Shown here piece after piece: positions 6,208-61,533 of a DNA stretch of 64,000 nt. Each line of letters begins with the position of its first letter. Within the stretch, counting starts at the first letter, position 1. A program made the position numbers and the translations under genes. Source of the DNA: Candidatus Eiseniibacteriota bacterium (GTDB lineage: Bacteria; Eisenbacteria; RBG-16-71-46); the NCBI GenBank assembly GCA_033853925.1, contig JAWOLC010000001.1:4658-68657 (forward strand), read 5' to 3'. Below the pieces are notes generated by a model, which worked only from the letters and a program-made list of their open reading frames with translations, was not told the DNA's origin and did not search any database.

Positions 6208-7002
6208 CTATAATGTCGTGCCGATTCTGCGCGGTAGGGGCGGCGAATCGGGCGCCTTCAGGGCGGCGACGCTCCAGAGGCGGCCCGTGCGGCCCGCATC
6301 GCGCCGATGGGAGAAGTACCAGTACGGCTCGCAGGCCGTGCAGGCGCCCGTGTCCTCGAGGGCCTCGGGCGGCAGCCCCGCTTCCTCGAGCTGGAGCCGG
6401 GCCACCGCGGGCAGATCGAGGTAGAGATGCCCGCTCGCGCGCCTCTGGGCCGCGGCGGGAAAGCGTCGAGCCACGTCGGAGCCGACCTCGTAGCAGCAGG
6501 AGCGGATGCAGGGTCCGAGGACCACGCGCACCCGCCGCGGCGGAAGCTGCACCGCGGCGCACAGCGCACGCAGGGTCGCCGCGGGGGCTCCCGCCAGGGC
6601 GCCGCGCCAGCCGGCGTGAGCCACCGCGACGGCACCCGGGGCCGCGTAGAGGAGGCCCATGCAGTCGGCAGTCGAAACCGCCAGGGAGATGCCGGGCGTG
6701 ACGGTGAGCAGCGCGTCGCAGCCGCTCACGTGACCGGGATGCGAGACGAGGCGCGCATCCGCCCCGTGCACCTGCCCGGCGCTCGCCAGGGAGGTGAGCC
6801 GGAGGCCGAGGCTGCCGAGGAGCCGGGCTCGGTTCTCGGCCACGGCCTCGGGCCGGTCTCCCACGGAGAGCCCCAGGTTGAGAGAGTCCCAGGGCGGAGC
6901 GCTGGCGCCGCCGCGGCGGGTCGAGAACGCCAGCACGAACGCGGGATCGGCAGGCTGCGGGCGCCAGGCCGGAACGGGGGCGTCACGATCCAGGTTCCAC
7001 AT
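6208..7002 (-). CDS. pgeF: Peptidoglycan editing factor PgeF / YfiH (DUF152) family purine nucleoside phosphorylase/laccase-like protein
   Basis: 264-aa ORF with DUF152/YfiH-type sequence (GQVHGADARLVSHPG...ADCMGLLYAAPGAVAVAHAGWRG...CTACEPYWYFSHRRD). It lies upstream of, and on the same strand as, the cyclophilin gene. Confidence 0.8.
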   Translation of the reverse strand: MWNLDRDAPVPAWRPQPADPAFVLAFSTRRGGASAPPWDSLNLGLSVGDRPEAVAENRARLLGSLGLRLTSLASAGQVHGADARLVSHPGHVSGCDALLTVTPGISLAVSTADCMGLLYAAPGAVAVAHAGWRGALAGAPAATLRALCAAVQLPPRRVRVVLGPCIRSCCYEVGSDVARRFPAAAQRRASGHLYLDLPAVARLQLEEAGLPPEALEDTGACTACEPYWYFSHRRDAGRTGRLWSVAALKAPDSPPLPRRIGTTL

Positions 7003-7048
7003 GGAGAGGTCACAAGCTAGAGAAGCGCCCGGGGAAGCGTCAAGGCGG

Positions 7049-10000
7049 ATGGCCGCGAAGGGAGTGCTCCGGATGAGTCAGTCGAGGTGGCGGGCCGTGA
7101 TGGCGATCGTGGTCACGTTGCTGGTGGCGGCAGGCATGGCGGTGGCGCAGGTGGCGCCGCCCAAGGGCGCGGCGCGTCCGGCCCAGGCTCCCCCTCCACC
7201 TCCCGCGGTGGCGACCGTGGGCGCCCTGCGCATCACCCAGACCGAGCTGGATCAGCGGGTCCAGCAGGCTCTCGCCGAGTACAAGGGCCGGACCACGACC
7301 GAGGTCCCGCCGGAGGTCATGCCGATCGTGCGCCGGCAGATCCTCGAGGGCCTGATCCGCCGCGACCTGCTCGTCCTCGAGGCGCGCCGCCGCGGCCTGC
7401 AGGCCACCGAGCAGGAGGCCGAGGCCCAGCTCCAGAAGGACCCCTTCTTCCAGGTCAACGGCAAGTTCGACGCCGCCCGCTTCAATCAGGTCCGCCTGCA
7501 GAACCCCGCCGTCTTCGCGAGCGCGATCCAGACGCTGCGGACGAGCCTGGCGGCCCAGAAGCTGATGCGCCAGCTCCAGGCGGAGAAGGGCCCCTCCGAG
7601 GCGACCCTGCGTGCCCGGGCGCGCCGCGAGCTGATGCGCGTCGACGTCGACTACCTGGCGGTGCGCCGCAGCGAGTTCGACGGCAACTACCCCGAGCCGC
7701 GCGAGAGCGAGATCCTCGACTACTATCGCGGCCATGCCAAGGAGTTCGAGCGACCCCAGCGCGCCCTGCTCTCCATCGTCTTCGTGGACCAGCCGGCTCT
7801 GCCGGACTCGGAGGCCGCGGTCCCCGCCGAGGTCACGGCCTGGAACGCGCGCATGAAGCAGCGAGCGGACAGCATCCTCGCGGGCGTCAAGGCGGGCCGG
7901 AAGCTCGAGGAGCTGACGGCGCCGTTCGGCGGACCACGCCCCAACCAGATCGCCTTGCCCGGCAACTTCCCCGGGTTCTGGGGGGGCAACCAGGCGGTGA
8001 ATCAGTCCGTCTTCACGGCCGCGCCCGGCACGATCCTGCCCGAGGCCGTCCCGGGGCAGCACGGCTGGCTCGTGGCCCGGGTGGACCGGGTGGAGCCCGC
8101 GCACGTGGCGGCGTTCCGCGAGGTCGCACGCGAGATTCGCGCGCGGCTGCGCAACGAGCGACGCCAGGGATTCGAGGAGCAGGGGTTGCGGGCGCTCTAC
8201 GAGACCCTGCGGGACAGTCTGAAGACGACCGGCTACCGCCTGCGCTACGCGGTCGTGGACTCGGCCTCGATCGATCCCGGCCAACCCGGCCCGGCCGACC
8301 TGGACCGCTATTACCGCGCGCACCTGGCCGACTACTCCTCGTTCAGCAGCCAGCAGGGCGGCGTGACCACGAAGCCGTTCGCCGAAGTCCGTGACGACGT
8401 GCAGGCCCGCTGGCTGCGCGAGCGCCGTGCCGAGCTGGCGCGCAGCCGGGCCGAGGATCTGCGCGACGCGTGGACCCGAGGCAAGCGCGACCCCGCCCTC
8501 GAGCAGCGCCTGCGCGTGCGCGAGGCGGGCCCGCTGCCGCTGGGCGTGCCGGTGGATTCGAGCGTGGCCGGGCGGCTGATCGCCGATTCCCTGGCCGCCC
8601 GGGCCGGCGCCACGGACCCGGGTCTGGCCCGGAGCGGCGACACCTGGGCCGTGTTCCAGGTGCTCGCCCGCGTGCCCGACTACGTGCCCAGCTTCGCCCA
8701 GGCCCGCCCGAGGCTGGTCGAGCGCTTCCGCGCCCGGCGGCAGGCCGAGGACGAGGACGGCGCCCGGAAGCTGTTCGAGGCCTCCCCGCGCGAATTCCAG
8801 TCCGGCAACGTGGTCCACTACTCCCGGGTGATGGTGGCGCCGCCCTCGGTGCTGCGCGTGCCGCTCACCCACGGCGAGGTCGAGCGCTACTATCGCGAGC
8901 ACATCGAGAAGTACTCGGCCGCCGAGCTGGTGAGCGCCCAGCACATCCTCATCAGCCCGCGCGACCGCACGGCCGCGGCCGACCGCGAGGCGCGCGCCCG
9001 CGCCGACAGCATCCTCGCGGTCCTGCGGGCGGGCGCGGACTTCGCCACCGTGGCCGGGCAGACCACGGACGACCCCGCCACCCGCGAGAACGGGGGCGAC
9101 CTCGGCACGTTCGGGCGGGGCGCCATGCTCCCCGAGTTCGAGCGGGCGGCGTTCGCCATGCGGGCGGGGGACCTGAGCCGCGAGCCGGTGCGCACGTCCG
9201 TCGGCTACCACATCATCAAGGTCTACGACTACCGCCCTCTGAGCACGAACCCGCTGGCGCACGTCTACTCGAACGTGAGCTCCGACGCGGCCGAGGTGAA
9301 GGCCGACTCGTTGAACCGGGTGCAGGCGGACAGCCTGTGGCGCAGCCTGAAGAGCGCCGCCGCGGCCCGCCTGGCCGCCAAGCACATGGGCCTGAGCATC
9401 AGCTCCTACGACCACGTGATCGGCCAGCAGGAGCGAGCGCCCCAGGACGTGCAACCCTACTTCCGCAGGCTGGAGAGCGTGAAGGCGGGAGCGATGTACC
9501 CGGGCATCCAGCAGTTCAAGGGCATGGGCTTCGCCGTCACCTGGGTGGACAGCGTCACCCCGCCGCGCACGCCCACCTGGGACGAGGCCCGCGAGAAGGC
9601 GGTGGAGGTGTACCGCGAGGGCGCGGGAACGCGCGCGCTGAACGCCAAGCTCGCCGAGCTGGACTCCCTGATGCAGGCTGGCTGGACGCTGGACAGCCTG
9701 GCCGCGGGCTGGGGCGGGCTCGTCCACAGCGCGGACTACTCGCCCGGGACGCGTCTGGCCGGCGTGGGCACGAGCGGCCTGCTCGACAGCCTCATCTTCG
9801 GCTCCGGGCGGGCAGCCGGGCTCACCCCGGGCCGGCCGAGCGCCTGGGTCCGGTTGCCCGGCGGGGCCCTTCGCCTGCGTGTCGGCGAGGTGCGGAGCCC
9901 GGACGCCAACGCGGTCACGACCCGGATCGAGACCCTGCGCAGCTCGGAGACCGAGGCCGCGCTCTTCGGCTACTTCGACGTGCTCAAGAAGCGCTTTCCG

Positions 10001-10066
10001 GTGCGCATCCTCGACCGGAAGCTGCGCGACGCGATGCTGCCGCAGACCGTGAACCCCGCGCGCTGA
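7049..10066 (+). CDS. Periplasmic chaperone / peptidyl-prolyl isomerase of the PpiD/SurA family (parvulin domain)
   Basis: In-frame ATG at 7049 (MAAKGVLRMSQSRWRAVMAIVVTLLVAAGMAVAQ, a signal/anchor). A parvulin PPIase domain is present (AQHILISPRD...GGDLGTFGRGAMLPEFERAAFAM...GYHIIKV). At 1005 aa it is longer than typical PpiD. Confidence 0.7.
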   Translation: MAAKGVLRMSQSRWRAVMAIVVTLLVAAGMAVAQVAPPKGAARPAQAPPPPPAVATVGALRITQTELDQRVQQALAEYKGRTTTEVPPEVMPIVRRQILEGLIRRDLLVLEARRRGLQATEQEAEAQLQKDPFFQVNGKFDAARFNQVRLQNPAVFASAIQTLRTSLAAQKLMRQLQAEKGPSEATLRARARRELMRVDVDYLAVRRSEFDGNYPEPRESEILDYYRGHAKEFERPQRALLSIVFVDQPALPDSEAAVPAEVTAWNARMKQRADSILAGVKAGRKLEELTAPFGGPRPNQIALPGNFPGFWGGNQAVNQSVFTAAPGTILPEAVPGQHGWLVARVDRVEPAHVAAFREVAREIRARLRNERRQGFEEQGLRALYETLRDSLKTTGYRLRYAVVDSASIDPGQPGPADLDRYYRAHLADYSSFSSQQGGVTTKPFAEVRDDVQARWLRERRAELARSRAEDLRDAWTRGKRDPALEQRLRVREAGPLPLGVPVDSSVAGRLIADSLAARAGATDPGLARSGDTWAVFQVLARVPDYVPSFAQARPRLVERFRARRQAEDEDGARKLFEASPREFQSGNVVHYSRVMVAPPSVLRVPLTHGEVERYYREHIEKYSAAELVSAQHILISPRDRTAAADREARARADSILAVLRAGADFATVAGQTTDDPATRENGGDLGTFGRGAMLPEFERAAFAMRAGDLSREPVRTSVGYHIIKVYDYRPLSTNPLAHVYSNVSSDAAEVKADSLNRVQADSLWRSLKSAAAARLAAKHMGLSISSYDHVIGQQERAPQDVQPYFRRLESVKAGAMYPGIQQFKGMGFAVTWVDSVTPPRTPTWDEAREKAVEVYREGAGTRALNAKLAELDSLMQAGWTLDSLAAGWGGLVHSADYSPGTRLAGVGTSGLLDSLIFGSGRAAGLTPGRPSAWVRLPGGALRLRVGEVRSPDANAVTTRIETLRSSETEAALFGYFDVLKKRFPVRILDRKLRDAMLPQTVNPAR

Positions 10067-20462: not shown

Positions 20463-20686
20463 TGCCCCGTCCCGGGGGTAGGTCGACCTGGGTCGGAGGC
20501 CCGCAGCGGCCCGGACGAGGCACGCCGACGACGCAACCGGCTCTGGTTGCGAAGGAGGCGCAAGGCCGCCAGGGCCGCGAGGTCCCCGAGATCTGGCGAG
20601 TTACTCCCGGGACAGGACACGAGCTCGAACTTGCGGAGGCGGCCGGGCTCGAATAGATTCGACGGGACGAAGGAAGCCCCTGAGGT

Positions 20687-20763
20687 CGGGGCGTAGCGCA
20701 GCCTGGTAGCGCACCTGCATGGGGGGCAGGTGGTCGCTGGTTCAAATCCAGTCGCCCCGACCA
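20687..20763 (+). tRNA. tRNA-Pro (anticodon GGG)
   Basis: Hand-folded. Acceptor CGGGGCG/CGCCCCG, anticodon stem CCTGC/GCAGG with loop ATGGGGG, T loop TTCAAAT, encoded CCA. Confidence 0.8.
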
Positions 20764-20899
20764 CTCCTTCCGCCGAGAAGGGCCCATCTGCGGCGTCGTC
20801 CCCGCGGCTCCGTGCCCCGTTCCGGTCCGCCGGCGAGCGGCTTCCGCTCCGTCCTCTTCGCTTGCATCTTCGCCCCGGCCGCCCCAAAGTGCCGTCGGT

Positions 20900-21715
20900 A
20901 TGCTCTCCGGTCTTCTCTACGTGCTCGCCGACGCGCTCGCGCGGCTCCTGCCCGCCAGGGTGGCCGACTCGCTGGCGGTGGCGCTGGCGCGCGTCGCCTT
21001 CGCGGTGCGCGTGCCGGCCCGGGTGCGGCTCGAGGAGAACCTGGCTCGCCTCATGGAGGTGGGGCCGGATCGTCGCGTGCGGGACAAGGCCCGGGAAGCC
21101 TTCGGCAACTTCGCCCTGACGTTCGTGGACGTGCTGAGACTCGGACACCTGTCGCCCGCACGGCTGGCGGCGTCCCTCGAGGTGCACGGCGCGGAGCACC
21201 TCCAGGCCGCCCGTGCCTCGGGCCGGGGGGTGATCCTGCTCTCGGCGCACCTCGGCAATTGGGAGCTGGGGGCGGCGTGGCTCGCGGCGGGCGGAGCCCC
21301 GTTGCACCTCGTGGCCCGGCCCCACCCGAGCCCCTGGGTCGAGCGCCTCTACGCCCGGCGCCGCGGCGCCTGGGGCGTGCGCGTGGTGCCCGATCGCCCG
21401 CTGTGGCGCGCGGCCGCGTGCGCCCTGCGGCGCCGCGAGTGGGTCGCGCTGATGGCCGACCGGGCTCCGCGCCGGCCGGGCAGGCGTACGTCGGCGTGCG
21501 CCTGGGCGGCCGCTCTCTCGCGACGCACGGGCGCTCTGGTGCTGCCGGCGGTCATCGTGCGTCTGCCCGACCGGCGCTACGCCGCCTACTTCGAGACGCC
21601 GCTCGAGCCCGCGGCCGTGCGCGCCGACGGCTTCGTCGAGTGGGTGCGGCGACACCTGCGGCAGCATGCCGGGCAGTGGTTCGCCTTCGAGCCCTTGCCC
21701 GAGGGGCTGGCCTGA
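20900..21715 (+). CDS. Lipid A biosynthesis (lauroyl/myristoyl) acyltransferase family protein (LpxL/HtrB-like)
   Basis: 271 aa. Contains SAHLGNWELGAAWLA, which is the H(X4)E-like motif region of the LpxL/lysophospholipid acyltransferase family. Confidence 0.6.
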   Translation: MLSGLLYVLADALARLLPARVADSLAVALARVAFAVRVPARVRLEENLARLMEVGPDRRVRDKAREAFGNFALTFVDVLRLGHLSPARLAASLEVHGAEHLQAARASGRGVILLSAHLGNWELGAAWLAAGGAPLHLVARPHPSPWVERLYARRRGAWGVRVVPDRPLWRAAACALRRREWVALMADRAPRRPGRRTSACAWAAALSRRTGALVLPAVIVRLPDRRYAAYFETPLEPAAVRADGFVEWVRRHLRQHAGQWFAFEPLPEGLA

Positions 21716-26388: not shown

Positions 26389-26700
26389 TTGCAGCTCCTT
26401 GCTTCCGGGGCCGAAGACCCCAACTCGCCGTCCAGACGCGACGGCAGCGTCCGGCCACTCTGGCCGGATTCGGTGCCTGGCACGAAGACGCAAATGCCGC
26501 CAGGTAGACCCTGGCGGCACCGAACGCGCGTTCGTACATCCATGGGCAACCGAAGCAGGCTCTAGTATCCCCGAATGACCCGAAGATGTCAAGTCGAACC
26601 TCTCAGTCGGGGCACGCCGCGCCGGCCCCGCGCCCGGCGGAGGCGAGCGGTCGCACCCCGATTGCCGGTATCATCAATGCTCGCCGCTCGGTGGGCGAAA
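26389..26700 (-). promoter_or_regulatory. Divergent intergenic region: a long csp 5' leader (a candidate cold-shock 5'-UTR regulatory RNA) plus promoters for csp and the S8 protease
   Basis: About 315 bp lie between the csp start and the first plausible protease ATG. Cold-shock genes characteristically carry long structured leaders; only the location is visible here. Confidence 0.35.
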
Positions 26701-26703
26701 GCC

Positions 26704-28839
26704 ATGGAGCGGCAGGCCCCGATGTCCTCCACCCTGGCGCGGCCACGGCCGCCCGTGTCCACACCACTGCTCATGCCGATTGCCCACCGTCGCGAGCCGC
26801 CTTTCCCGTCCGCGAGATCGTTGCCAGGCTCGGGAACGGGGCTCGCCGCCGCCCGAGGCGCCCGGACAGGCGCGCGGCGCCTCGGCCGAATCGGGCCGCT
26901 CGCTGCAGCGGCGCTCGTGCCGCTCGTTCTTCTGGGCTCCGCGCCGACTCGCGCCGCCATCCTCGACCTGGCCGTGCGCGACGCGATCGCCGGGAGCGCC
27001 GACGGCAGCGCCTACGTGGTCGTCCTCCTCACCCCGGTCACCGGCGAGCCTCGGGTCCGCCGGAGCGCGGTCGCCGCTGCCGAGTCACGGGTCCTCGCCG
27101 GCCTGGCCGAGACCGACTTCGTGCCCGCGTACCGCTACCAGTCCTTCGCCGCCCTCAGCGGCCGGGTCAGCGCGGCCGGCCTGGCCCGGCTCGCCGCGCA
27201 TCCCGACGTCGCGGCCATCGGTCTCGATGTCCGGGGCGGCGCCGACCTGGTGTCGAGCGTGCCCTTCATCGGCGCCGCCGCGGTGCAGAGCCTCGGTATC
27301 CGCGCCGACAGCATCACGGTGGCCGTCCTCGATTCCGGCATTGACACGGATCACCCGGACCTCGCGGACCACGTCGCGGCAGGCGCGTACCACTTCCTCG
27401 GCCAGGGGGCGGACTCGGGTCCAGGGGCCGAGGACGGGAACGGTCATGGCACGAACGTGGCGGGCATCATCACCTCGCGCGGGCTGGCGACCTACCCGGG
27501 AGTCGCCCCCGGCGCCGCGATCCTGGCGGTGCGCGTCCTGGACGCCAGCGGCTCCGGCTGGCTCTCCGACTGGGCGGCAGGCGTCGACTACGTCGTGACC
27601 CACGCCGGCGACCATCCCCACCTCTGCGTGCTGAACATGAGCCTCGGCTCGTACGTCCTCTACGACCAGTGTCCGTGCGACGGAGCCTCGGCGGCGACCC
27701 TGCTGCTCCAGGCCGCGCTCGCGAGCGCCCGGGCGGCGGGGATCACCACCTTCTGCTCGAGCGGCAACAACGGCTCGGCCACGAGCATGACGGCGCCCGC
27801 CTGCCTCTCCGCGGCCACGGCCGTGGCTGCCGTCTACGAGGCGGATCTCGGGCGCCAGCCGGTCACCGGGACTTACGCGCAGGCGTTCGGCACGTCGTTC
27901 GCGAGCTGCGCCGACGCCGAGACGGACCCGGACGAGATCACCTGCTTCTCGAACCGGAGCCCGTGCAACCGGCTCGCCGCCCCCGGCCGCTCGATCGCCG
28001 CACCGGGCCTCGGCGGAGGCACGAGCGTCTATACCGGCACGTCGCAGGCTTCGCCGCACTGCGCGGGGACAGCCGCCCTGGTCGCCCAGGCTCGCCTGGA
28101 CGCCGGGCTCCCCATGCTGAGCCCCGAGCAGATGATCGATCTCCTCTCCGCCACGGGCCTGCCGACTCTCGACCCGCAGGGCACCTCGCCCAATCCCCGG
28201 CGCGTGGACGCGCTGGCCGCCGTGGACGAGGCCGTCCCTCCCGTGGTCGCCCTGGCGAGCCCGCGGGGCGGCGAGTCGCTCGCGATCGGCGACACGATCC
28301 AGATCCGCTGGCGGGCCCGCGATGTGATCGGCGTCACGGGCGTGAGCGTGCAGATCTCGCGTGGAGCGGGCGGGTCCCCGGAGGTCATCGGCGAGGAGTC
28401 GCCCGGCGCCGATTCCCTGGACTGGGTGGTGACCGGACCGTCCACCTCGCGCGCCCGAGTGCGGGTCGAGGCCCGCGACGCCGCGGGCAACATCGGCGCG
28501 GACTCGAGCGCCGGCGACTTCGAGATCCGCGCCAGCGGCGCCGCCGTTCCGGATTGGCCGGCAGGCCAGTTCGGCCTGCTCGGGCTGGCCCCCAATCCGG
28601 TGCAGGACCGTGTCTGGCTCGACTTCGCCCTGCCCTTCGCGGCTCAGGCGCGCATCGAGGTGCTGGACATCCAGGGCCGCCGCGTCGGCCGGCTGGCCGA
28701 CGGCCGCTTCGAGGCCGGGCGTCATCGGCTCGAGTGGCGAACGGCAGGCCCCGCGGGGGAGGTCTCCCCGGGCCTCTACTTCGTGCGCCTGGAGTGCGCC
28801 GGCAGGCGCTGGACGAAGAGGCTGGCCGTCACGCGTTGA
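26704..28839 (+). CDS. Secreted subtilisin-family (S8) serine peptidase with Ig-like domain and C-terminal FlgD-Ig/T9SS-type sorting domain. The start is uncertain (ATG 26704 or 26773).
   Basis: Catalytic triad motifs VAVLDSGID (Asp), NGHGTNVAGII (His) and GTSQASPHCAG (Ser). Signal/anchor stretch IGPLAAAALVPLVLLGSAPTRAA. The C-terminal 85 aa (NPVQDRVWLDF...VLDIQGRRVGRL...GRHRLEW...PGLYFVRL) is homologous to the C-terminus of the 57535..61533 protein. Confidence 0.75.
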   Translation: MERQAPMSSTLARPRPPVSTPLLMPIAHRREPPFPSARSLPGSGTGLAAARGARTGARRLGRIGPLAAAALVPLVLLGSAPTRAAILDLAVRDAIAGSADGSAYVVVLLTPVTGEPRVRRSAVAAAESRVLAGLAETDFVPAYRYQSFAALSGRVSAAGLARLAAHPDVAAIGLDVRGGADLVSSVPFIGAAAVQSLGIRADSITVAVLDSGIDTDHPDLADHVAAGAYHFLGQGADSGPGAEDGNGHGTNVAGIITSRGLATYPGVAPGAAILAVRVLDASGSGWLSDWAAGVDYVVTHAGDHPHLCVLNMSLGSYVLYDQCPCDGASAATLLLQAALASARAAGITTFCSSGNNGSATSMTAPACLSAATAVAAVYEADLGRQPVTGTYAQAFGTSFASCADAETDPDEITCFSNRSPCNRLAAPGRSIAAPGLGGGTSVYTGTSQASPHCAGTAALVAQARLDAGLPMLSPEQMIDLLSATGLPTLDPQGTSPNPRRVDALAAVDEAVPPVVALASPRGGESLAIGDTIQIRWRARDVIGVTGVSVQISRGAGGSPEVIGEESPGADSLDWVVTGPSTSRARVRVEARDAAGNIGADSSAGDFEIRASGAAVPDWPAGQFGLLGLAPNPVQDRVWLDFALPFAAQARIEVLDIQGRRVGRLADGRFEAGRHRLEWRTAGPAGEVSPGLYFVRLECAGRRWTKRLAVTR

Positions 28840-54883: not shown

Positions 54884-55396
54884 ATGAACGTTCCCGTGAA
54901 TTCCGCCTCCGCCATCTCCGCGTCCTTCCTCGCGGAGCTCGATGTCGAGATGCCCACGACCCGCCGACTGCTGGAGCGTGTGCCCAGCGACAAGGCGGCG
55001 TGGAAGCCGCACGTGAAGTCCTTTCCCCTCGGACACCTGGCTCAGCTCGTGGCCCGCATGCCCGGCTGGCTGGCCCCCATCATGCGCGAGGGCGCGCTCG
55101 ACCTGGGCCGCGCACCCGCGTACAGCCTCGAGAAGACCGAGACGCTGCTCGCCGAGTTCGACCGCAACGTGAACGACGGCAGGGCGGCCCTGGCCGCAGC
55201 CAGGGATGAAGACTTCAGCGTGCCCTGGTCGCTCAAGACCGGCGACCGCGTGCTCTTCACGCTGCCTCGCGTCGCCGTGGTGCGCTCGACGATCAACCAT
55301 CTCGTTCACCACCGCGGACAGCTCAGCGTCTACCTGCGTCTCGTCGACGTGCCGCTGCCTTCCATCTACGGACCGACGGCCGACGAGAAGTGGTAG
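54884..55396 (+). CDS. DinB/YfiT-family (DinB_2) protein
   Basis: FLAELDVEMPTTRRLLERVPSDKAAWKPHVKSFPLGHLAQLVA and the C-terminal INHLVHHRGQLSVYLR are typical of the DinB_2 four-helix bundle. An alternative start GTG at 54791 has a strong upstream RBS AAGGAGAAGGAGG. Confidence 0.65.
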   Translation: MNVPVNSASAISASFLAELDVEMPTTRRLLERVPSDKAAWKPHVKSFPLGHLAQLVARMPGWLAPIMREGALDLGRAPAYSLEKTETLLAEFDRNVNDGRAALAAARDEDFSVPWSLKTGDRVLFTLPRVAVVRSTINHLVHHRGQLSVYLRLVDVPLPSIYGPTADEKW

Positions 55397-55521
55397 GCGG
55401 GCCGCGGGCCGCCCGCGGCCGGATGCTTCGCCGCATCGCCGGGGCCCCAGCCGATGGCCTGGGCCGCGGGGCAGGCGTCCCCGCGTTCATTCCTACGAAA
55501 GCACCGGGGATGGGGCGCTAG

Positions 55522-57099
55522 GTGGCCGTCCCCCTCCGGCCACCCTGCGATGCCGCGCTCGTGCGCGCCGGCGCATGTGCCGCGCCCGCCCCCGAGAGCG
55601 CGCGCCGCTGGGTGCTGGCCACGACCATCCTCGGCTCCAGCATGATCTTCCTCGACGGAACGATCGTGAACGTGGCCCTGCCGGTCCTGCAGCGGCAGTT
55701 CGACGCCACGCTGGCCGCCGTGCAGTGGGTCGTCGAGGCCTACGCCCTCTGCCTCGCCGCGTTCATGCTCGTGGGCGGGGCGCTGGGCGACCGCATCGGC
55801 CGCCGCCGGGCCTTCGCCCTGGGCGGCGTGATCTTCGCCGTCGCCTCGGCGCTGTGCGGCGCTGCGCAGGATCTCGGCCAGCTCGTCGCCGCCCGCATCG
55901 CGCAGGGGGTCGGCGGGGCCCTGCTCGCGCCGAACAGCCTCGCCATCATCAGCAGCTCCTTCGCCGACGAGTCGCGGGGCCGGGCGATCGGCACCTGGTC
56001 GGGCTCGACCGCCATCCTCGCCGGACTGGGACCGGTCGCAGGCGGCTGGCTGATCGATCACGCCTCCTGGCGCTTCGCCTTCTGGCTCAACCTGCCCCTG
56101 GCCTTGATCACGCTCGCGATCCTCTTCGCTCGCGTCCCGGAGAGCCGCGATGCCGAAGCGCGCGGAGCGGTGGACTGGGGCGGCGCGTCCCTGGCGACGC
56201 TGGGTCTGGGCGGAATCGTCTACGGCCTGCTCGAGTGGGGATCCGACTCGGCGAGCCGGCGCGCCCAGGGGCTGGCGATCGCTGGCGGAGTCGCTCTGCT
56301 GGCCGCGTTCCTTGCGGTCGAGCGGCGGGGGCGCTCGCCCATGATGCCCCTTCAGCTCTTCGGCTCCCGCCGCTTCGGCGGAGCGAACCTCCTCACCCTG
56401 CTCCTCTACGCGGCGCTCGGCGGCGCGCTCTTCTTCCTGCCCTTCGAGCTGATCCAGGTGGATCACGAGTCCCCCACGGCCGCGGGGGCGGCGCTGGCTC
56501 CGTTCATCATCATCATGTCGGCGCTCTCCCGGTGGTCGGGCGGCCTGGTCGCCCGTCACGGGCCCAGGGCCCCGCTGGTCGTGGGCCCGCTCGTCGCGGC
56601 CGCCGGCTTCCTCCTGCTGGCGTCGGCGGCCCCGGGCCGAAGCTACTGGCTCGGCGTCTTCCCCGGTGTCGCGACCCTGGGCCTGGGGATGGCCGTGAGC
56701 GTCGCGCCGCTCACGACCACCGTGATGAGCGCGGTCCCCCAGCGCCTCGCCGGCACGGCCTCGGGAGTCAACAACACGGCGGCCCGGGTGGCCGGTCTGC
56801 TGGCGATCGCGATTCTCGGTCTCGTGCTCCTCTCGGCGTTCCGCCGCGCTCTCGACCATCGCATCGCCGCGATTCCCCTGGACGCTTCCGTCCGCCTGGC
56901 ACTGGACCGAGGCAGCGCGAAGCTCGCGGCTCTGCCGCTCCCGCCCGGGCCGTCGGCGGAAACGCGCGCCGCCGTCGAGCGGGCGATCGGCGACGCCTTC
57001 GTGGCGGGGTATCGGTTCGTGATGGTCATTGCGGCCGGCCTCGCTCTCGCGGGCGCGGTCGTCTCGTGGCGGATGATCGGCGGCGAAGAGGGCCCATAG
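55522..57099 (+). CDS. MFS transporter, DHA2 (14-TMS drug:H+ antiporter) family
   Basis: SSMIFLDGTIVNVALPVLQ, LCLAAFMLVGGALGDRIGRRRAF (motif A) and about 14 hydrophobic segments. Confidence 0.8.
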   Translation: MAVPLRPPCDAALVRAGACAAPAPESARRWVLATTILGSSMIFLDGTIVNVALPVLQRQFDATLAAVQWVVEAYALCLAAFMLVGGALGDRIGRRRAFALGGVIFAVASALCGAAQDLGQLVAARIAQGVGGALLAPNSLAIISSSFADESRGRAIGTWSGSTAILAGLGPVAGGWLIDHASWRFAFWLNLPLALITLAILFARVPESRDAEARGAVDWGGASLATLGLGGIVYGLLEWGSDSASRRAQGLAIAGGVALLAAFLAVERRGRSPMMPLQLFGSRRFGGANLLTLLLYAALGGALFFLPFELIQVDHESPTAAGAALAPFIIIMSALSRWSGGLVARHGPRAPLVVGPLVAAAGFLLLASAAPGRSYWLGVFPGVATLGLGMAVSVAPLTTTVMSAVPQRLAGTASGVNNTAARVAGLLAIAILGLVLLSAFRRALDHRIAAIPLDASVRLALDRGSAKLAALPLPPGPSAETRAAVERAIGDAFVAGYRFVMVIAAGLALAGAVVSWRMIGGEEGP

Positions 57100-57534
57100 C
57101 CCACGCTTCAGGACGTCACGGTCGCCGACGACCTCCGCCGGGGTGGCCGGCCCGCGTGGAGGCTTTTCCCCAGAGCCGCGGGCAAATGCCCCGCCCCGGA
57201 GGGCCAGCGGCCGCGCCTCCGGCAGATCGCGCCTTCGCGGCGTCCTGCCGGCAGGGGCCGGCGTCCCGCCGCGCGCGCTCCTCCTCGAGAGGAAGGGCCG
57301 GGAAATCGGGCGGTCCCGCCGAGGCCCGCTCGGCTCGGACGCCTCGGGCGGTCCTCTTGTCTCCTCCCCGGAGCGCGCCGAGGTGTCTCCCCGGGGGATC
57401 CCCCGCGATGGCAAGTGCCTTGCGTTGCCACGTCCTGCTGGGGGTGGGCGGCGGTCGCCGTGCCACTCGTTCCACGCATGGACGCCGGTCGCCCTGGGAA
57501 CGACTCCCGGCAGTCGAGCGACGGGAGAGAACGA

Positions 57535-60500
57535 ATGCTGCACGTGCCGACATCATCTCGCCTCTTCGCCATGGTCGCGGTGATTTCCGCGAGCCTGGCG
57601 CTCGCCGGGTCCGCGCTCGCGGGCCCGTCCGCCTCCATCGAGCAGGTGAGGAACGGCGAGGCCACCGCTCCTCTCACGCCCGTCCCCGCGTGGGGCACGG
57701 GCAATTGCGGTGCCTCGAACTCCCACTACCTCGAGAGCCACTCGACCGCCTATCGCGCCGTGATGGACGGACTCCCGACCGATGGCACCGTGGTCGAGCT
57801 CACCATCGGCTACGACGTGAAGCGCAGCGGCTCGTACGCCCTCGACTACCTGACCCACTTCCAGCGGCTGCTGCCCCATGTCCTCTTCGGCCATCGCGAG
57901 CCCGAGGTCATCGACCCCCTGAGCGGCATCACCGGTGTCGGCTCCCTCGTCACCACGGCTCCGATCCCCCTGCCCACGCGCAACCTGCTCGTGGATCCGG
58001 ACGGCCCCGACCCCGACCCGGCAGCGCTCCAGCCGGTGACCAGCATGGCCGCCCTGCCCGAGGCCGAGCGAGTGATGACCCTCTACGGTGGAACGCTCGT
58101 CGACGTCTCCTACGTGACGGAGGCGGACGTGAGCCTGGCCACCAACTCCTCCGAGTCGCAGGTCCGGGTGCGCTTCACGGCCAGCAGTCCCAAGGCCGTG
58201 CTGGCCTGGGGCGGACACATCGCCTGCCGCTGGGACTGGGGTTTCAACGCGGACGGCACGCCGCGGTCGGCCGCAGGGATCAGCGGCTCCTCCTACCACA
58301 TGCGGCTGGTCACCTGGAGCCTCGGGAACCTGGGGAACCAGGATCGCTCGATGTCCACCGACGCCGTCTACCCCGTCCCGCGCTGCGGAATCTCGAACCT
58401 CGGCCCCTTCTGCGCCGGATCCACCAACACCCACACGGCGCCATCGGGGATGGAGTCCTACGCCTGGTCGCTGTTCGACAACACCTGCGGGGCCGAGATC
58501 GTCGGCGCCGACACCGGCCTCACGGTCGTCGTCCGCTCGAGCAGCGCCGGGAGCTACGGCCTGCTGCTCACCACGGGGGCGAGCGGGTTCACCAAGCAGT
58601 GTCAGGCGACGGTGCTCGTGAACCCGCCCGTCGTCGCGGACGCGGGCCCCGACCAGACCGTTTGCGCCGGAAGCCCCCAGACGCGGCTCGCCGGCGTGGT
58701 GAGCGGCGGCAGCGGAGCGTGGAGCGGCGGCACGGGCGCCTTCAGCCCCGGCCGCGGTGATGCGAACGCGGCGTACACGCCGTCGGCCGCCGAGATCGCG
58801 GCGGGGGGCGTCACCCTCACCCTCGTCTGCACCCCGTCGTCCGGACCCTGCCCGCCCGCCAGCGATCCCCTGCGCATCACCATCGACCCGATGGCCACGG
58901 CGAACGCCGGGCCCGACCAGATCCTCTGTGCGAGCAGCTCGCAGGCCCAGCTCGCCGGCCTGATCGGAGGCGCGGCAGCGAGTGGGGTGTGGAGCGGCGG
59001 GGCCGGCGCCTTCAGCCCGAGCGCCGCCGCCCTGAACGCGACCTACACGCCGACGGCGGCCGAGATCGCCGCCGGCAGCGTGACGCTGACGCTCACGAGC
59101 AACGACCCCGCCGGCCCCTGCGGGGCGGCCAGCGATCAGGTGCGCCTCACCTTCAATCCCGCCGCGCTCGCCGAGGCCGGGCCCGACCAGACGCTCTGCG
59201 GCACCAGCCCCCAGGCCCAGCTCGCGGGCAGCGTGGGCGGCGCGGCCACGCGAGGCACCTGGAGCGGCGGTGCCGGCACCTTCAGCCCGAGCGCCGCGGC
59301 CCTGAACGCCACCTACTCGCCGACCGCGGCCGAGATCGCGGCCGGCGGCGTGAGCTTGACCCTCACCACCGACGACCCGCCCGGGCCTTGCCCGGCGGTC
59401 AGCGACCTCGTACGGCTCGCCTTCAGCCCCGCGGCGATCGCGAACGCCGGCCCCGACCAAGAGGTGTGCGCGAGCAGCCCGCAGGTGACGCTCGCCGGCG
59501 CGGTGGGAGGGGCGGCGACGAGTGGCACGTGGAGCGGGGGCGCCGGCACCTTCAGCCCGAGCGCCGCGGCCCTGGACGCGACCTACTCGCCGACCTCGGC
59601 CGAGATCGCCGCCGGCCACGTCACCCTGACGCTCACCACGAACGATCCGGCGGGGCCTTGCCCCGCGGTGAGCGACGTCGTGGACGTCACCATCGCTCCC
59701 GCGGCTCTGGCGAACGCCGGGGCCGACCAGCGCGTCTGCGCGAGCAGTCCCCAGGTCCCGCTCGCGGGCGCCGTGGGTGGCGGCGCGGTGAGCGGCACGT
59801 GGAGCGGCGGGGCCGGGAGCTTCAGCCCCCGCGCGACCGCGCTGAATGCGACCTACTCGCCGACCGCGGCCGAGATCGCGGCGGGCGGCGTCACCCTCAC
59901 CCTCACCACCAACGACCCGGCCGGGCCCTGCGGCCCGGCCAGCGACACGATGCGGATCACCATCGACCCGGTGACGACCGTGAACGCAGGTCCCGATCAG
60001 ACCGTGTGCTCGAGCAGCCCACAGGTCCAGCTCCAGGGCGCGGTGAGCGGCACCGTCTCGAGCGGCACGTGGGGCGGCGGGGTGGGAACGTTCAGCCCGA
60101 GCGCCTCCTCCTTGACCGCGACCTACACCCCGACGGCGGCGGAGATCGCGGCAGGCGGCGTCACCCTGGTGCTGACCAGCGCCACGCCGGCGGGGCCGTG
60201 CCCACCCGCCAGCGACGCCGTGACCATCGTCATCCGCCAGGCGGTCACGGTGAACGCGGGCCCGGATCAGACGGTGTGCCTGGCCTCGCCGCAGGTGCAG
60301 CTCGCGGGCTCGCTGGGGAACGGAGCCACGAGCGGCACGTGGAGCGGCGGAACCGGCACGTTCAGCCCCGGACCCACCGCGCTGAACGCGCTCTACACCC
60401 TCTCGGCCGCGGAGATCGCCGCGCGGGGCGTCACCCTCACGCTCACCACCAACGACCCCGAGGGCCCGTGCCCCGCCGTGAGCGACGCGATGCGGATCAC

Positions 60501-61533
60501 GCTCGACGCGCCGACCGTGACGGTCCCGGACCGCGTCGTCTGCGCCGGCATCTCGCCGGTCACGCTCTGCGCGAATCCAGCCAACGGCGTCGCGCCCTAC
60601 ACCTATCGGTGGAGCACCGGCGCCACCGGTCCGTGCATCTCCGTCGCGGACACCGGGCGCTACACCGTCTCCATCACCGACGCCAGGGGCTGCCAGGCCA
60701 GCGGGAGCGGCGTCTTCCGGCAGCGCGATTGCCAGGGCCAGCTCGCCCACACGAGCACCACCTGCGACAGCTACATGGCGGGAACGGGGGAGGACCTCTC
60801 CTCGACGAGCGTGAGCTACGTGCTCAGGGACGGGGTCATCACCAGCATCGCGCCCGGAGTGTTCTTCTACTACACCAAGGTGACCGCCCCCAGGGCCGAC
60901 TTCACCGTGCAACTGGTACAGGTCAAGAACAACCCCGCCTTCCCCTTCTGCGAGGTGCAGCAGGACCAGGTCGTGCTCTACGACGCGGACTGCAATCGCA
61001 TCGGCGCGGGGAGCGGCACGACCGCGGGGCAGGCGTCGGTCGACGTGCACGGGGCCACGGTCGGGCAGGTGTTCATCATCAGCGTGAAGTACTCCCTCAA
61101 GGTCCTGGTCGGCACCGCGATCGGGCCGGCGGGCGGCGCCCATTACACCTTCCGCACCGAGATCGACGGCACCGTCGTCGATCAGGACCCCGACGGCCTG
61201 CAGATCGGGCCACCGAGCCTGGTCGCCGTCGGCGACGGCCCGTCGGCGTTCGAGGGAATCGAGCTGTATCGACCCATCCCCAACCCGTTCCACCACGGCA
61301 TGTGGATGGTCTATGCGGTGGCCTCGGGTCGCGAGCGGGTGGTGGTCTGCGTCTTCGATCTCGCGGGCCGGCGCGTGCGCAGCCTGACGAACGACTACCA
61401 GTCGCCGGGGCGCCACATGGTCGCCTGGGACGGCCGTGACGAGCAGGGCACGCGCGTGCGGAGCGGCCTGTACTTCGTCCACGTCGCCATCGGCGAGCGG
61501 GCGCGCCAGGTGCGCGTCACCTTCCTGAAGTAG
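57535..61533 (+). CDS. Giant secreted cell-surface repeat protein. It has a unique 360-aa N-terminal domain, seven 90-aa tandem Cys-containing repeats, a SprB-type repeat and a C-terminal FlgD-Ig/T9SS-like sorting domain.
   Basis: ATG at 57535 follows the RBS GGGAGAGAA. Signal peptide MLHVPTSSRLFAMVAVISASLALAGSALAG. The repeat unit is xNAGPDQxVCxSSPQxxLAGxVGGxAxSGxWSGGAGxFSPSAAALNATYxPTAAEIAAGxVTLTLTTNDPAGPCxxxSDxVxxTI. Then comes APYTYRWSTGATGPCISVADTGRYTVSITDARGC (SprB-like), followed by the C-terminal NPFHHGMWMVYA..FDLAGRRVRSL..GRHMVAWDG..SGLYFVHV domain. Confidence 0.8.
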   Translation: MLHVPTSSRLFAMVAVISASLALAGSALAGPSASIEQVRNGEATAPLTPVPAWGTGNCGASNSHYLESHSTAYRAVMDGLPTDGTVVELTIGYDVKRSGSYALDYLTHFQRLLPHVLFGHREPEVIDPLSGITGVGSLVTTAPIPLPTRNLLVDPDGPDPDPAALQPVTSMAALPEAERVMTLYGGTLVDVSYVTEADVSLATNSSESQVRVRFTASSPKAVLAWGGHIACRWDWGFNADGTPRSAAGISGSSYHMRLVTWSLGNLGNQDRSMSTDAVYPVPRCGISNLGPFCAGSTNTHTAPSGMESYAWSLFDNTCGAEIVGADTGLTVVVRSSSAGSYGLLLTTGASGFTKQCQATVLVNPPVVADAGPDQTVCAGSPQTRLAGVVSGGSGAWSGGTGAFSPGRGDANAAYTPSAAEIAAGGVTLTLVCTPSSGPCPPASDPLRITIDPMATANAGPDQILCASSSQAQLAGLIGGAAASGVWSGGAGAFSPSAAALNATYTPTAAEIAAGSVTLTLTSNDPAGPCGAASDQVRLTFNPAALAEAGPDQTLCGTSPQAQLAGSVGGAATRGTWSGGAGTFSPSAAALNATYSPTAAEIAAGGVSLTLTTDDPPGPCPAVSDLVRLAFSPAAIANAGPDQEVCASSPQVTLAGAVGGAATSGTWSGGAGTFSPSAAALDATYSPTSAEIAAGHVTLTLTTNDPAGPCPAVSDVVDVTIAPAALANAGADQRVCASSPQVPLAGAVGGGAVSGTWSGGAGSFSPRATALNATYSPTAAEIAAGGVTLTLTTNDPAGPCGPASDTMRITIDPVTTVNAGPDQTVCSSSPQVQLQGAVSGTVSSGTWGGGVGTFSPSASSLTATYTPTAAEIAAGGVTLVLTSATPAGPCPPASDAVTIVIRQAVTVNAGPDQTVCLASPQVQLAGSLGNGATSGTWSGGTGTFSPGPTALNALYTLSAAEIAARGVTLTLTTNDPEGPCPAVSDAMRITLDAPTVTVPDRVVCAGISPVTLCANPANGVAPYTYRWSTGATGPCISVADTGRYTVSITDARGCQASGSGVFRQRDCQGQLAHTSTTCDSYMAGTGEDLSSTSVSYVLRDGVITSIAPGVFFYYTKVTAPRADFTVQLVQVKNNPAFPFCEVQQDQVVLYDADCNRIGAGSGTTAGQASVDVHGATVGQVFIISVKYSLKVLVGTAIGPAGGAHYTFRTEIDGTVVDQDPDGLQIGPPSLVAVGDGPSAFEGIELYRPIPNPFHHGMWMVYAVASGRERVVVCVFDLAGRRVRSLTNDYQSPGRHMVAWDGRDEQGTRVRSGLYFVHVAIGERARQVRVTFLK
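58620..60540 (+). repeat. Coding tandem repeat array: seven copies plus one truncated copy, with an exact 270-bp period
   Basis: The AGPDQ-encoding motif recurs at about 58636, 58906, 59176, 59446, 59716, 59986, 60256 and 60526 (a degenerate eighth copy). Copies are highly similar at the nucleotide level. Confidence 0.85.

What the first reader, a model, noticed from the sequence alone, without database searches (positions are those of the whole stretch)
57535..61533. 1332-aa surface protein with seven perfectly phased 270-bp tandem repeats carrying an N/DAGPDQxVC...GPC motif
The repeat array (58620..60540) keeps an exact 270-bp (90-aa) register across seven copies, with two conserved Cys per unit. 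It is followed by a SprB-type repeat (APYTYRWSTG...TVSITDARGC) and a C-terminal sorting domain. The 360-aa N-terminal domain (Cys-containing, no recognisable family) may be the functional head, i.e. an adhesin or enzyme. Near-identical DNA repeats of this kind are hotspots for copy-number variation by slipped recombination (surface antigenic or length variation), and also for assembly collapse, so the true copy number may differ. The high-GC repeats also create a 1309-aa spurious antisense ORF.
Basis: seen in the sequence. Interest (0 to 1): 0.65.

Follow-up and report, generated by a model that had tools for sequence, protein, structure and literature searches.

The report
Surface protein with seven Ig-like repeats
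This gene encodes an ordinary kind of large bacterial surface protein: a conserved but uncatalogued tip domain held on a stalk of seven Ig/PKD-like beads, with a secretion-type tail; the repeats are real but diverged, so the copy number is reliable rather than unstable.

Summary
The ORF (57535..61533, +, 1332 aa) and its seven in-frame repeats are real. The repeats are not near-identical: nucleotide identity is 66-79%, amino-acid identity 57-78%, and no exact shared word exceeds 33 nt. The first unit is 264 nt, not 270.

Structure prediction shows each unit is an Ig/PKD-like beta-sandwich with an invariant Cys pair. The N-terminal "360 aa" is really two domains:
- a 250-aa beta-sandwich head (pLDDT 92.5) with only distant resemblance to Gram-positive pilin/adhesin domains;
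- an 80-aa Cys-containing module.

The head belongs to a large family that matches no model in Pfam or NCBIfam (1652 cluster representatives, more than ten phyla). It always sits N-terminal to phylum-specific stalks.

The tail is a FlgD-Ig / T9SS type A sorting-like domain. An orthologue's tail passes the T9SS model; this one does not.

Relatives are in Candidatus Eisenbacteria. Among 57 complete family members the copy number is 3, 5, 7, 9 or 11, never even. Thirty independent assemblies carry seven, so assembly collapse here is unlikely.

Verdict: a fibrillar-adhesin-like secreted protein, a new member of a known kind. Side points of modest interest are the two uncurated domain families and the two-repeat stepping rule.

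The parts
57523..57529 (+). Shine-Dalgarno-like GGGAGAG, 5 nt before the ATG
   Evidence: Read from the sequence. It supports ATG 57535 over GTG 57415 as the start.
57535..61533 (+). Coding sequence, 1332 aa plus stop
   Evidence: ORF list. GC3 is 0.935. There are 856 or more homologues, with full-length relatives at 63-72% identity in Candidatus Eisenbacteria.
57535..57624 (+). Signal peptide (aa 1-30: MLHVPTSSR / LFAMVAVISASLALAGSALA / G)
   Evidence: By inspection of the translation. Orthologues have a similar leader, and their head domain begins at residue 28-31. No signal-peptide predictor was available.
57625..58383 (+). Head (tip) domain, aa 31-283: a beta-sandwich of an uncurated, widespread family
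58384..58620 (+). Small Cys-containing module, aa 284-362, between head and repeats; an Ig-like fold is assumed, not shown
   Evidence: Sequence pattern with four Cys (284, 293, 318, 356). No Pfam hit when scanned alone. Conserved in orthologues and Bacteroidota head proteins. The fold was not modelled.
58621..60504 (+). Seven tandem Ig/PKD-like repeats, aa 363-990: R1 58621-58884; R2 58885-59154; R3 59155-59424; R4 59425-59694; R5 59695-59964; R6 59965-60234; R7 60235-60504
60505..60732 (+). Cys-rich SprB-like module, aa 991-1066
   Evidence: Partial SprB (PF13573) match: 20.3 bits against a cutoff of 28, covering profile positions 19-37 of 37. Five Cys.
60733..61278 (+). Family-specific domain of unknown fold, aa 1067-1248
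   Evidence: No Pfam, NCBIfam or PDB match. Homologues were found only in this family, always followed by FlgD_ig.
61279..61530 (+). C-terminal FlgD-Ig / T9SS type A sorting-like domain, aa 1249-1332
   Evidence: FlgD_ig scores 40.3-42.2 bits against a cutoff of 27. TIGR04183 scores 15.9 bits against 23, below threshold. The orthologue fragment P0339 passes TIGR04183 with 33.7 bits. The tail is shared with the S8 protease ORF at 26566-28836.

Best explanation
The gene encodes a Sec-exported, cell-surface or secreted 'fibrillar-adhesin-like' protein of a high-GC bacterium related to Candidatus Eisenbacteria.

Proposed layout after signal-peptide removal:
- A 250-aa beta-sandwich tip domain forms the distal functional end. 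It most likely binds a ligand, given its conserved polar pocket.
- A short Cys-containing module follows it.
- Seven contiguous 90-aa Ig/PKD-like domains with no linkers, each probably stapled by a disulfide between its two invariant Cys, form a fairly rigid stalk. From typical Ig-domain size this would be roughly 25-30 nm (inferred).
- A Cys-rich SprB-like module and a family-specific domain lead into the tail.
- The C-terminal FlgD-Ig / T9SS type A CTD-like beta-sandwich most likely directs passage across the outer membrane and/or attachment to the outer membrane.

Stalk length is an evolvable property of the family. Central repeats are gained and lost two at a time (3, 5, 7, 9 or 11 copies), while the first and the last two repeats stay fixed.

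Shown: the domain boundaries, the folds of the head and the repeat, family membership of the tail, and the copy-number pattern.

Inferred: export route, disulfides, rigidity and length of the stalk, and a binding function for the head.
For: - ORF, start and coding signal.
- Seven in-register repeats.
- Invariant Cys pair, including in Bacteroidota copies.
- The head is N-terminal (starting within about 300 residues) in the nine full-length loci checked and in most of the 150 listed hits. It lies upstream of interchangeable stalk domains (HYR_4C, PKD_6, SpaA_2/4, SdrD_B, DUF11) and surface-sorting tails (Por_Secre_tail, FlgD_ig, IPTL-CTERM). This is the architecture expected of adhesin tip domains.
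- Tail: FlgD_ig is above threshold. An orthologue's tail and the tails of other head-domain proteins pass the T9SS type A model. A subtilase in the same window carries the same kind of tail.
- The lipid A acyltransferase and SurA-like genes in the window indicate a diderm cell envelope.
- Copy number is 3/5/7/9/11 in 57 complete relatives, with classes intermixed in the clustering of non-repeat parts.
Against: - No known adhesive domain is present, and no ligand can be named.
- The head carries unusually many invariant polar residues (four His, two Glu, three Asp, three to four Arg). These could equally mark a catalytic or metal site.
- The window's own tail is below the T9SS model thresholds.
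- No T9SS machinery gene lies in the 64-kb window.
- No paper in the searched library links Eisenbacteria to T9SS.
Confidence: 0.65

Rival explanations
1. Periscope-type contingency protein. The array is a recombination hotspot that changes length within populations, and the assembled copy number may be collapsed.
For: - Copy number varies from 3 to 11 across the family.
- One pair is 97% identical outside the repeats yet differs by exactly four repeats. The junction lies in register, inside the conserved AAEIAAGGVTLTL motif.
- Some relatives show a period-2 DNA similarity signal that would guide unequal crossing-over. In L010 the lag-2 identity is 82% against 73% at lag 1.
Against: - The Periscope class is defined by highly identical repeats at the coding-sequence level (PMC9704523).
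- Here nucleotide identity is 66-79% and exact shared words are at most 33 nt.
- Seven copies occur in 30 of 57 complete relatives from independent assemblies.
- The single 3-copy sequence comes from a Logan assembly. From my own knowledge these are built with short k-mers, so it may itself be a collapse.
- The window array shows no period-2 signal.
Confidence: 0.12
2. Secreted enzyme. The head is a catalytic domain (for example acting on a polymer), displayed or released on an Ig-like spacer, as in many T9SS hydrolases.
For: - A dense set of invariant polar residues is found across sequences under 60% identical: Q37, H64, E67, R74, D94, D104, H120, E124, H228, Y254, H255, D270 and R271.
- Conservation is very broad across phyla.
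- T9SS-type tails are common on hydrolases. One example is the S8 protease in this window.
Against: - There is no sequence or structural similarity to any enzyme family.
- The architecture of a tip domain followed by a long stalk is typical of adhesins.
Confidence: 0.15
3. SprB-like gliding-motility adhesin carried along the cell surface by a T9SS-linked track.
For: - The same 88-90 aa repeat makes up 14-23 copies in Bacteroidota proteins that sources label 'gliding motility-associated C-terminal domain'.
- There is a weak SprB-repeat match.
Against: - The SprB and CHU_C (type B CTD) models are below threshold: 20.3 bits against 28, and 16.6 against 27.
- The tail resembles type A, not type B.
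- At 1332 aa the protein is far shorter than SprB, which is about 6500 aa (my own knowledge).
- No gliding genes are in the window.
Confidence: 0.05

Closest known systems
Bacteroidota giant T9SS cargo proteins labelled 'gliding motility-associated C-terminal domain-containing protein' (e.g. P0059, P0067)
   Same: They carry the same 88-90 aa repeat with the AGxDQxxC ... GxC motif and an invariant Cys pair (41-58% identity to the query over the aligned, array-spanning region). The units are head-to-tail without linkers, and Pfam does not recognise the array.
   Different: They have 14-23 copies of either parity, IgGFc_binding or PKD N-terminal parts in place of this head, and a type B CHU_C tail in place of the FlgD-Ig / type A-like tail.
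Fibrillar adhesins / Periscope proteins (Monzon and Bateman; Whelan; PMC8286594, PMC9704523)
   Same: A single-chain rod of tandem, independently folding domains projects an N-terminal functional domain away from the cell. Repeat number differs among relatives.
   Different: The repeats are diverged (66-79% nt identity), not highly identical. The tip is not a catalogued adhesive domain. The host is a diderm with a T9SS-like tail rather than LPXTG or T1SS anchoring.
PKD domains (ColH PKD 4u7k, KIAA1837 2yrl, PrtV PKD1 4l9d)
   Different: No PKD Pfam model matches, even at E<=10. The conserved Cys pair and the AGPDQ motif are specific to this repeat.
CnaA/CnaB-type domains of Gram-positive pilins and adhesins (CppA 5xcb, PrgB 8beg, AgI/II 3qe5, RrgB, BcpA)
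   Different: Identity is only about 10%, and only half of the 250-aa head aligns. There is no conserved Lys or Cys, so the isopeptide and thioester chemistry of those domains is not present. Foldseek is not significant.
T9SS type A C-terminal sorting domain (TIGR04183 / PF18962) and the FlgD Ig-like domain (PF13860)
   Same: An ~80-aa beta-sandwich sits at the extreme C-terminus. FlgD_ig is above threshold, and the orthologue tail passes TIGR04183.
   Different: This copy scores 15.9 bits against a cutoff of 23 for TIGR04183, and 14.6 against 27 for PF18962. The T9SS machinery is not verified in this organism.

Membership tests
Fibrillar adhesin-like protein | Tandem array of stalk domains that fold independently | tested here: met
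Fibrillar adhesin-like protein | A recognised adhesive (ligand-binding) domain | tested here: inconclusive
   No Pfam or NCBIfam family covers the head. There is only fold-level resemblance to pilin and adhesin sandwiches. The tip-domain architecture is conserved.
Fibrillar adhesin-like protein | Export signal plus a surface-anchoring or sorting element | tested here: inconclusive
   Signal peptide by inspection. The FlgD_ig tail is above threshold, but the T9SS sorting models are below threshold for this copy.
Periscope proteins | Highly identical tandem repeats at the coding-sequence level | tested here: not met
   66-79% nt and 57-78% aa identity; longest shared words 33 nt. The definition is taken from PMC9704523.
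Periscope proteins | Repeat-number variation between closely related strains | tested here: inconclusive
   The family spans 3-11 copies. The closest pair with different numbers is 97% identical outside the repeats, but its 3-copy member may be an assembly artefact. The next closest pair is 84% identical.
T9SS type A cargo | C-terminal domain matching TIGR04183 / PF18962 above the curated threshold | tested here: not met
   15.9 bits against 23 and 14.6 against 27. However, the orthologue fragment P0339 scores 33.7 bits, and the head-domain proteins P0199 and P0209 score 31.5 and 35.9 bits.
T9SS type A cargo | N-terminal Sec signal peptide | tested here: met
   Basic n-region, 20-residue hydrophobic core, and an ALA-G cleavage-like site. 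By inspection only.
T9SS type A cargo | T9SS core machinery (PorK/L/M/N, Sov/SprA, PorU, PorV) encoded in the genome | not testable with these tools
   None lies in the 64-kb window. The rest of the genome is not available, and the literature search found nothing for Eisenbacteria.
SprB-type gliding adhesin | SprB repeats (PF13573) above threshold and a type B CTD (CHU_C) | tested here: not met
   SprB scores 16.5-20.3 bits against 28 as a single partial match. CHU_C scores 16.6 bits against 27.
PKD domain family | Match to the PKD sequence models (PF00801 / PF18911 / PF19408 / PF22352) | tested here: not met
   Single repeats give no hit at E<=10. The profile against PDB finds the KIAA0319L PKD protein only at E 0.56.
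PKD domain family | PKD-type beta-sandwich fold | tested here: met
Isopeptide / thioester cross-linked adhesin domains (CnaA/CnaB, TED) | Conserved Lys-Asn/Asp plus a catalytic acid, or a Cys-Gln pair | tested here: not met
   No Lys or Cys appears among the positions conserved at 85% or more in 55 diverse heads.

The most novel reading that the evidence does not exclude
Two linked readings are not excluded.

(1) The head is the founding example of an undescribed tip domain, found across many bacterial phyla and in an archaeal genome bin. Its invariant constellation (Q37, E67, R74, H228, H255, D270, S272) would be a true active site. That site could be enzymatic, or it could form an autocatalytic intramolecular cross-link between the first and last strands. 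The second option would be analogous to, but chemically different from, the isopeptide and ester bonds of the pilin domains it structurally resembles.

(2) The stalk obeys a structural rule, with roughly a half-turn of twist per Ig/PKD bead. Only additions of two beads would then keep the head correctly oriented, which would explain why 57 of 57 complete relatives have an odd copy number.
Probability: 0.15. Interest if true: 0.55.

Novelty: new member of a known kind. Interest (0 to 1): 0.3.

Why it matters
For the genome itself the result is routine: a large secreted or surface protein of an uncultured soil or sediment bacterium, correctly assembled.

Three by-products have some wider value.
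- The 88-90 aa Cys-pair Ig/PKD-like repeat fills 1,200-2,000 residues of each of the three Bacteroidota T9SS proteins checked and recurs in dozens more, yet no Pfam-A model matched it in any scan run here. A model would annotate a large amount of 'dark' sequence.
- The 250-aa head is a widespread N-terminal tip domain with no curated family and no solved structure. It occurs in CPR bacteria, Planctomycetota, Chloroflexota, Actinomycetota, Bacteroidota, Acidobacteriota and an archaeon. That makes it a reasonable target for structural and ligand work.
- The strict two-repeat stepping of stalk length is a clean, testable case of either a mutational or a geometric constraint on repeat-protein evolution.

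T9SS-type tails on two proteins in one window also hint that T9SS-like export is used in Eisenbacteria. No paper in the searched library reports this.

Tried and rejected
- **Pfam on single repeats and modules.** The Cys-containing module and the mid-domain were also scanned alone at E<=10; nothing relevant appeared.
- **PDB sequence searches.** Profiles of the head and the repeat gave nothing significant.
- **Fold libraries.** Foldseek against PDB for the head gave nothing at E<=1e-3. The afdb50 fold library was unavailable.
- **Isopeptide or thioester chemistry in the head.** Rejected, because no Lys or Cys is conserved.
- **Tandem paralogues.** The idea came from P0009 and P0055 sharing a 9568-nt contig length. 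It was rejected because the P0009 contig holds only one family gene.
- **Conserved gene neighbourhood or operon.** None was found among the Eisenbacteria loci. The window neighbours are an MFS transporter, a DinB protein, a metallo-beta-lactamase-fold protein and a ferredoxin-like protein.
- **Second copy in the window.** No other ORF in the window carries the repeat.
- **Internal similarity.** The Cys-containing module and the SprB-like module show none.
- **Promoter and terminator scan.** No sites were found.
- **Exact look-up of the window protein's contig.** Not on record.
- **Literature on Eisenbacteria and T9SS.** Nothing found.
- **Period-2 signal in the window's own array.** Absent, although it is present in some relatives.


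Full report
**1. The observation**

The window is about 72% G+C. The ORF from ATG 57535 to the stop at 61531-61533 encodes 1332 aa. A longer reading from GTG 57415 is also open. Three things support the ATG:
- A GGGAGAG motif sits 5 nt upstream.
- A classical signal peptide starts at that Met.
- In orthologues the head domain begins at residue 28-31.

The sense frame has GC3 of 0.935. The 1309-aa antisense ORF (57553..61482) has GC3 of 0.64 and GC1 of 0.93. Two long alternative-frame ORFs behave the same way. All three are by-products of base composition.

Tandem Repeats Finder reports a 270-nt period with 6.3 copies, 74% matches and score 1326. The repeat finder places seven copies with spacings of 264, 270, 270, 270, 270 and 270 nt. 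In protein terms the units are R1 (88 aa, 58621-58884) and R2-R7 (90 aa each, up to 60504). All seven carry the AG[PA]DQxxC and GPC motifs.

The array is therefore real and far beyond chance. Two parts of the description are wrong:
- The register is not seven exact 270-nt steps.
- The copies are not near-identical. Nucleotide identity is 66-79% and amino-acid identity 57-78%. The longest exact words shared by two units are 33 and 32 nt, and all others are 21 nt or less.

**2. The repeat**

No Pfam or NCBIfam model matches the repeat, even when single units are scanned at E<=10. An AlphaFold2 model of R3-R4 was built from a 30-sequence alignment of di-repeats. It has pLDDT 95 and pTM 0.77, and shows two beta-sandwiches, each with a short helix.

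The two Cys per unit are invariant, including in Bacteroidota copies. A strand-stapling disulfide is likely but could not be measured. The units abut without linker residues. The 'beads-on-a-string' idea is supported.

**3. The rest of the protein**

The '360-aa N-terminal domain' is two parts. Residues 31-283 form the head. Its model, from 48 sequences, has pLDDT 92.5 and pTM 0.90.

- the shaft pilins EbpC, LrpA, BcpA and RrgB

These alignments cover only 115-137 residues at about 10% identity. Foldseek finds nothing significant. Profile searches of PDB sequences find nothing.

Across 55 heads that are under 60% identical to each other, many polar residues are almost invariant: Q37, N40, N57, H64, E67, S70, Y73, R74, D94, D104, T107, R111, H120, E124, H228, S245, S252, Y254, H255, D270, R271 and S272. 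No Lys or Cys is conserved, which excludes the isopeptide and thioester chemistry of its structural neighbours.

The remaining parts are:
- **Residues 284-362.** A small four-Cys module with no family match.
- **After the repeats.** A Cys-rich module with a partial, sub-threshold SprB match (20.3 bits against 28).
- **The next ~180 aa.** A domain found only in this family.
- **The C-terminus.** A FlgD_ig domain at 40 bits against a cutoff of 27.

The T9SS type A sorting models are below threshold for this copy: 15.9 bits against 23, and 14.6 against 27. However, the tail of an orthologous fragment (P0339) passes at 33.7 bits. Tails of other head-bearing proteins also pass. A subtilase ORF at 26566-28836 in the same window carries a homologous tail: 30% identity, and TIGR04183 at 20.7 bits.

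**4. Relatives and context**

Full-length relatives at 63-72% identity come from metagenomes and from genome bins labelled Candidatus Eisenbacteria. The attribution of the window to that phylum is an inference from these hits.

The repeat alone recurs in Bacteroidota proteins labelled 'gliding motility-associated C-terminal domain'. These carry 14-23 copies. In the three scanned here, every Pfam hit lies outside the array.

The head is much more widespread. It has 1652 cluster representatives at E<=1e-3 and 349 loci in species-representative genomes. These include CPR lineages, Planctomycetota, Actinomycetota, Chloroflexota, Bacteroidota, Verrucomicrobiota, Acidobacteriota and a Nitrososphaerota archaeon.

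The head lies at or near the N-terminus in the loci examined in detail. It is followed by phylum-specific stalks (HYR_4C and PKD_6; SpaA_2/4; SdrD_B; DUF11 and DUF7507) and by different sorting tails.

Flanking genes in the window are unrelated housekeeping or transport genes. They are not conserved among Eisenbacteria loci. No other ORF in the window carries the repeat.

**5. Copy number**

I counted units in the 120 best hits with an HMM built from the seven units. There are 57 complete family members, defined as having the same head and the same C-terminal part. Their copy numbers are:

| Copies | Members |
|---|---|
| 3 | 1 |
| 5 | 6 |
| 7 | 30 |
| 9 | 12 |
| 11 | 8 |

Even counts occur only in truncated fragments. 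The complete arrays in genome loci have 7, 7, 9, 11 and 11 copies; a 3'-truncated ORF has at least 11 and a 5'-truncated one has 7.

Position-specific HMMs show that the first, penultimate and last units keep their identity. The central units are the ones gained or lost, often in a 3-4-3-4 pattern. Copy-number classes are intermixed when the non-repeat parts are clustered, so many independent changes occurred, all by even steps.

In some relatives the central units are more alike at lag 2 than at lag 1:
- L010: 82% against 73%
- L009: 79% against 75%
- L004: 75% against 72%

This is the signature of a 540-nt super-repeat that would guide unequal crossing-over. The window's own array and L001 show no such signal. 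Bacteroidota arrays have both parities.

One pair (P0024 with 7 copies, P0073 with 3) is 97% identical outside the array. It differs by an in-register loss of exactly four units, with the junction in the conserved AAEIAAGGVTLTL motif. The 3-copy sequence comes from a Logan assembly, so it may be either a real deletion or a collapse.

**6. Interpretation**

The best-supported reading is a Sec-exported fibrillar-adhesin-like protein. It has a conserved tip domain, a stalk of seven disulfide-stapled Ig/PKD-like beads, and a T9SS type A-like tail for outer-membrane export or attachment.

The inference of an unstable, possibly collapsed array was not, for two reasons. The defining Periscope feature, highly identical coding repeats (PMC9704523), is not met. 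And seven copies are reproduced in 30 independent assemblies.

Whether the head binds a ligand or catalyses a reaction is open. Its neighbours in fold space and its architectural position favour binding. Its invariant polar constellation keeps an enzymatic or cross-linking role alive.

**7. Novelty and score**

This is a new member of a known kind. The following are worth recording but would not surprise a specialist:
- two domain families that matched no Pfam or NCBIfam model in these scans;
- the odd-only, two-repeat stepping of stalk length;
- the hint of T9SS-type sorting in Eisenbacteria.

Interest: 0.3.

Noticed in passing
window 26566-28836 (+): A subtilase (Peptidase_S8, E 6e-37) carries a C-terminal tail homologous to the target's tail (30% identity over 84 aa). 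It scores 20.7 bits against the T9SS type A sorting model, just under the cutoff of 23. Two unrelated secreted proteins in one window therefore share the same sorting-type tail.
   Followed up: partly
family members P0002-P0073; loci L001, L004, L005, L007, L009, L010, L011: Copy number of the 90-aa repeat is 3, 5, 7, 9 or 11 in all 57 complete relatives, and odd in the complete arrays of the genome loci. It is even only in truncated fragments. Changes sit in the central units, and the classes are phylogenetically intermixed.
   Followed up: yes
L010 2207-7144 (also L009, L004): The central repeats show a 540-nt super-period. In L010, DNA identity at lag 2 is 82% against 73% at lag 1. This signal is absent from the window's own array.
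   Followed up: partly
P0024 versus P0073: The two proteins are 97% identical outside the array but differ by an in-register loss of exactly four repeats. The junction lies in the AAEIAAGGVTLTL motif. The short form is from a Logan assembly, so it may be a real deletion or an assembly collapse.
   Followed up: partly
window 57625-58383; loci L012-L079: The head domain is an uncurated family found in CPR bacteria, Planctomycetota, Chloroflexota, Actinomycetota, Bacteroidota, Acidobacteriota, Verrucomicrobiota and a Nitrososphaerota archaeon. In the loci examined it is N-terminal to different stalk types.
   Followed up: yes
L010 (contig DATLUU010000522.1): A contig binned as Verrucomicrobiia carries a close orthologue: head 74% identical, at least 11 repeats, ORF running off the contig end. 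This is otherwise typical of Eisenbacteria bins. Possible mis-binning or transfer.
   Followed up: no
window 55206-58760 (+), 58989-61439 (+), 57553-61482 (-): Three very long ORFs (1184, 816 and 1309 aa) overlap real genes. Their GC3 is about 0.6 and their GC1 is 0.86-0.94. They are composition artefacts of a 72% G+C genome.
   Followed up: yes
P0121 and P0341 (both list a longest contig of 194,952 nt): An N-terminal fragment (372 aa: head plus first repeat) and a mid-domain fragment (176 aa) of a family member both list a longest contig of the same length, 194,952 nt. If this is one contig, the gene may be broken by frameshifts or gaps within the array in that assembly.
   Followed up: no
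window 20684-21712 and 6734-10063 (+): A lipid A biosynthesis acyltransferase and a SurA-like PPIase chaperone indicate a diderm, LPS-containing envelope. That is consistent with a need for an outer-membrane export route.
   Followed up: no
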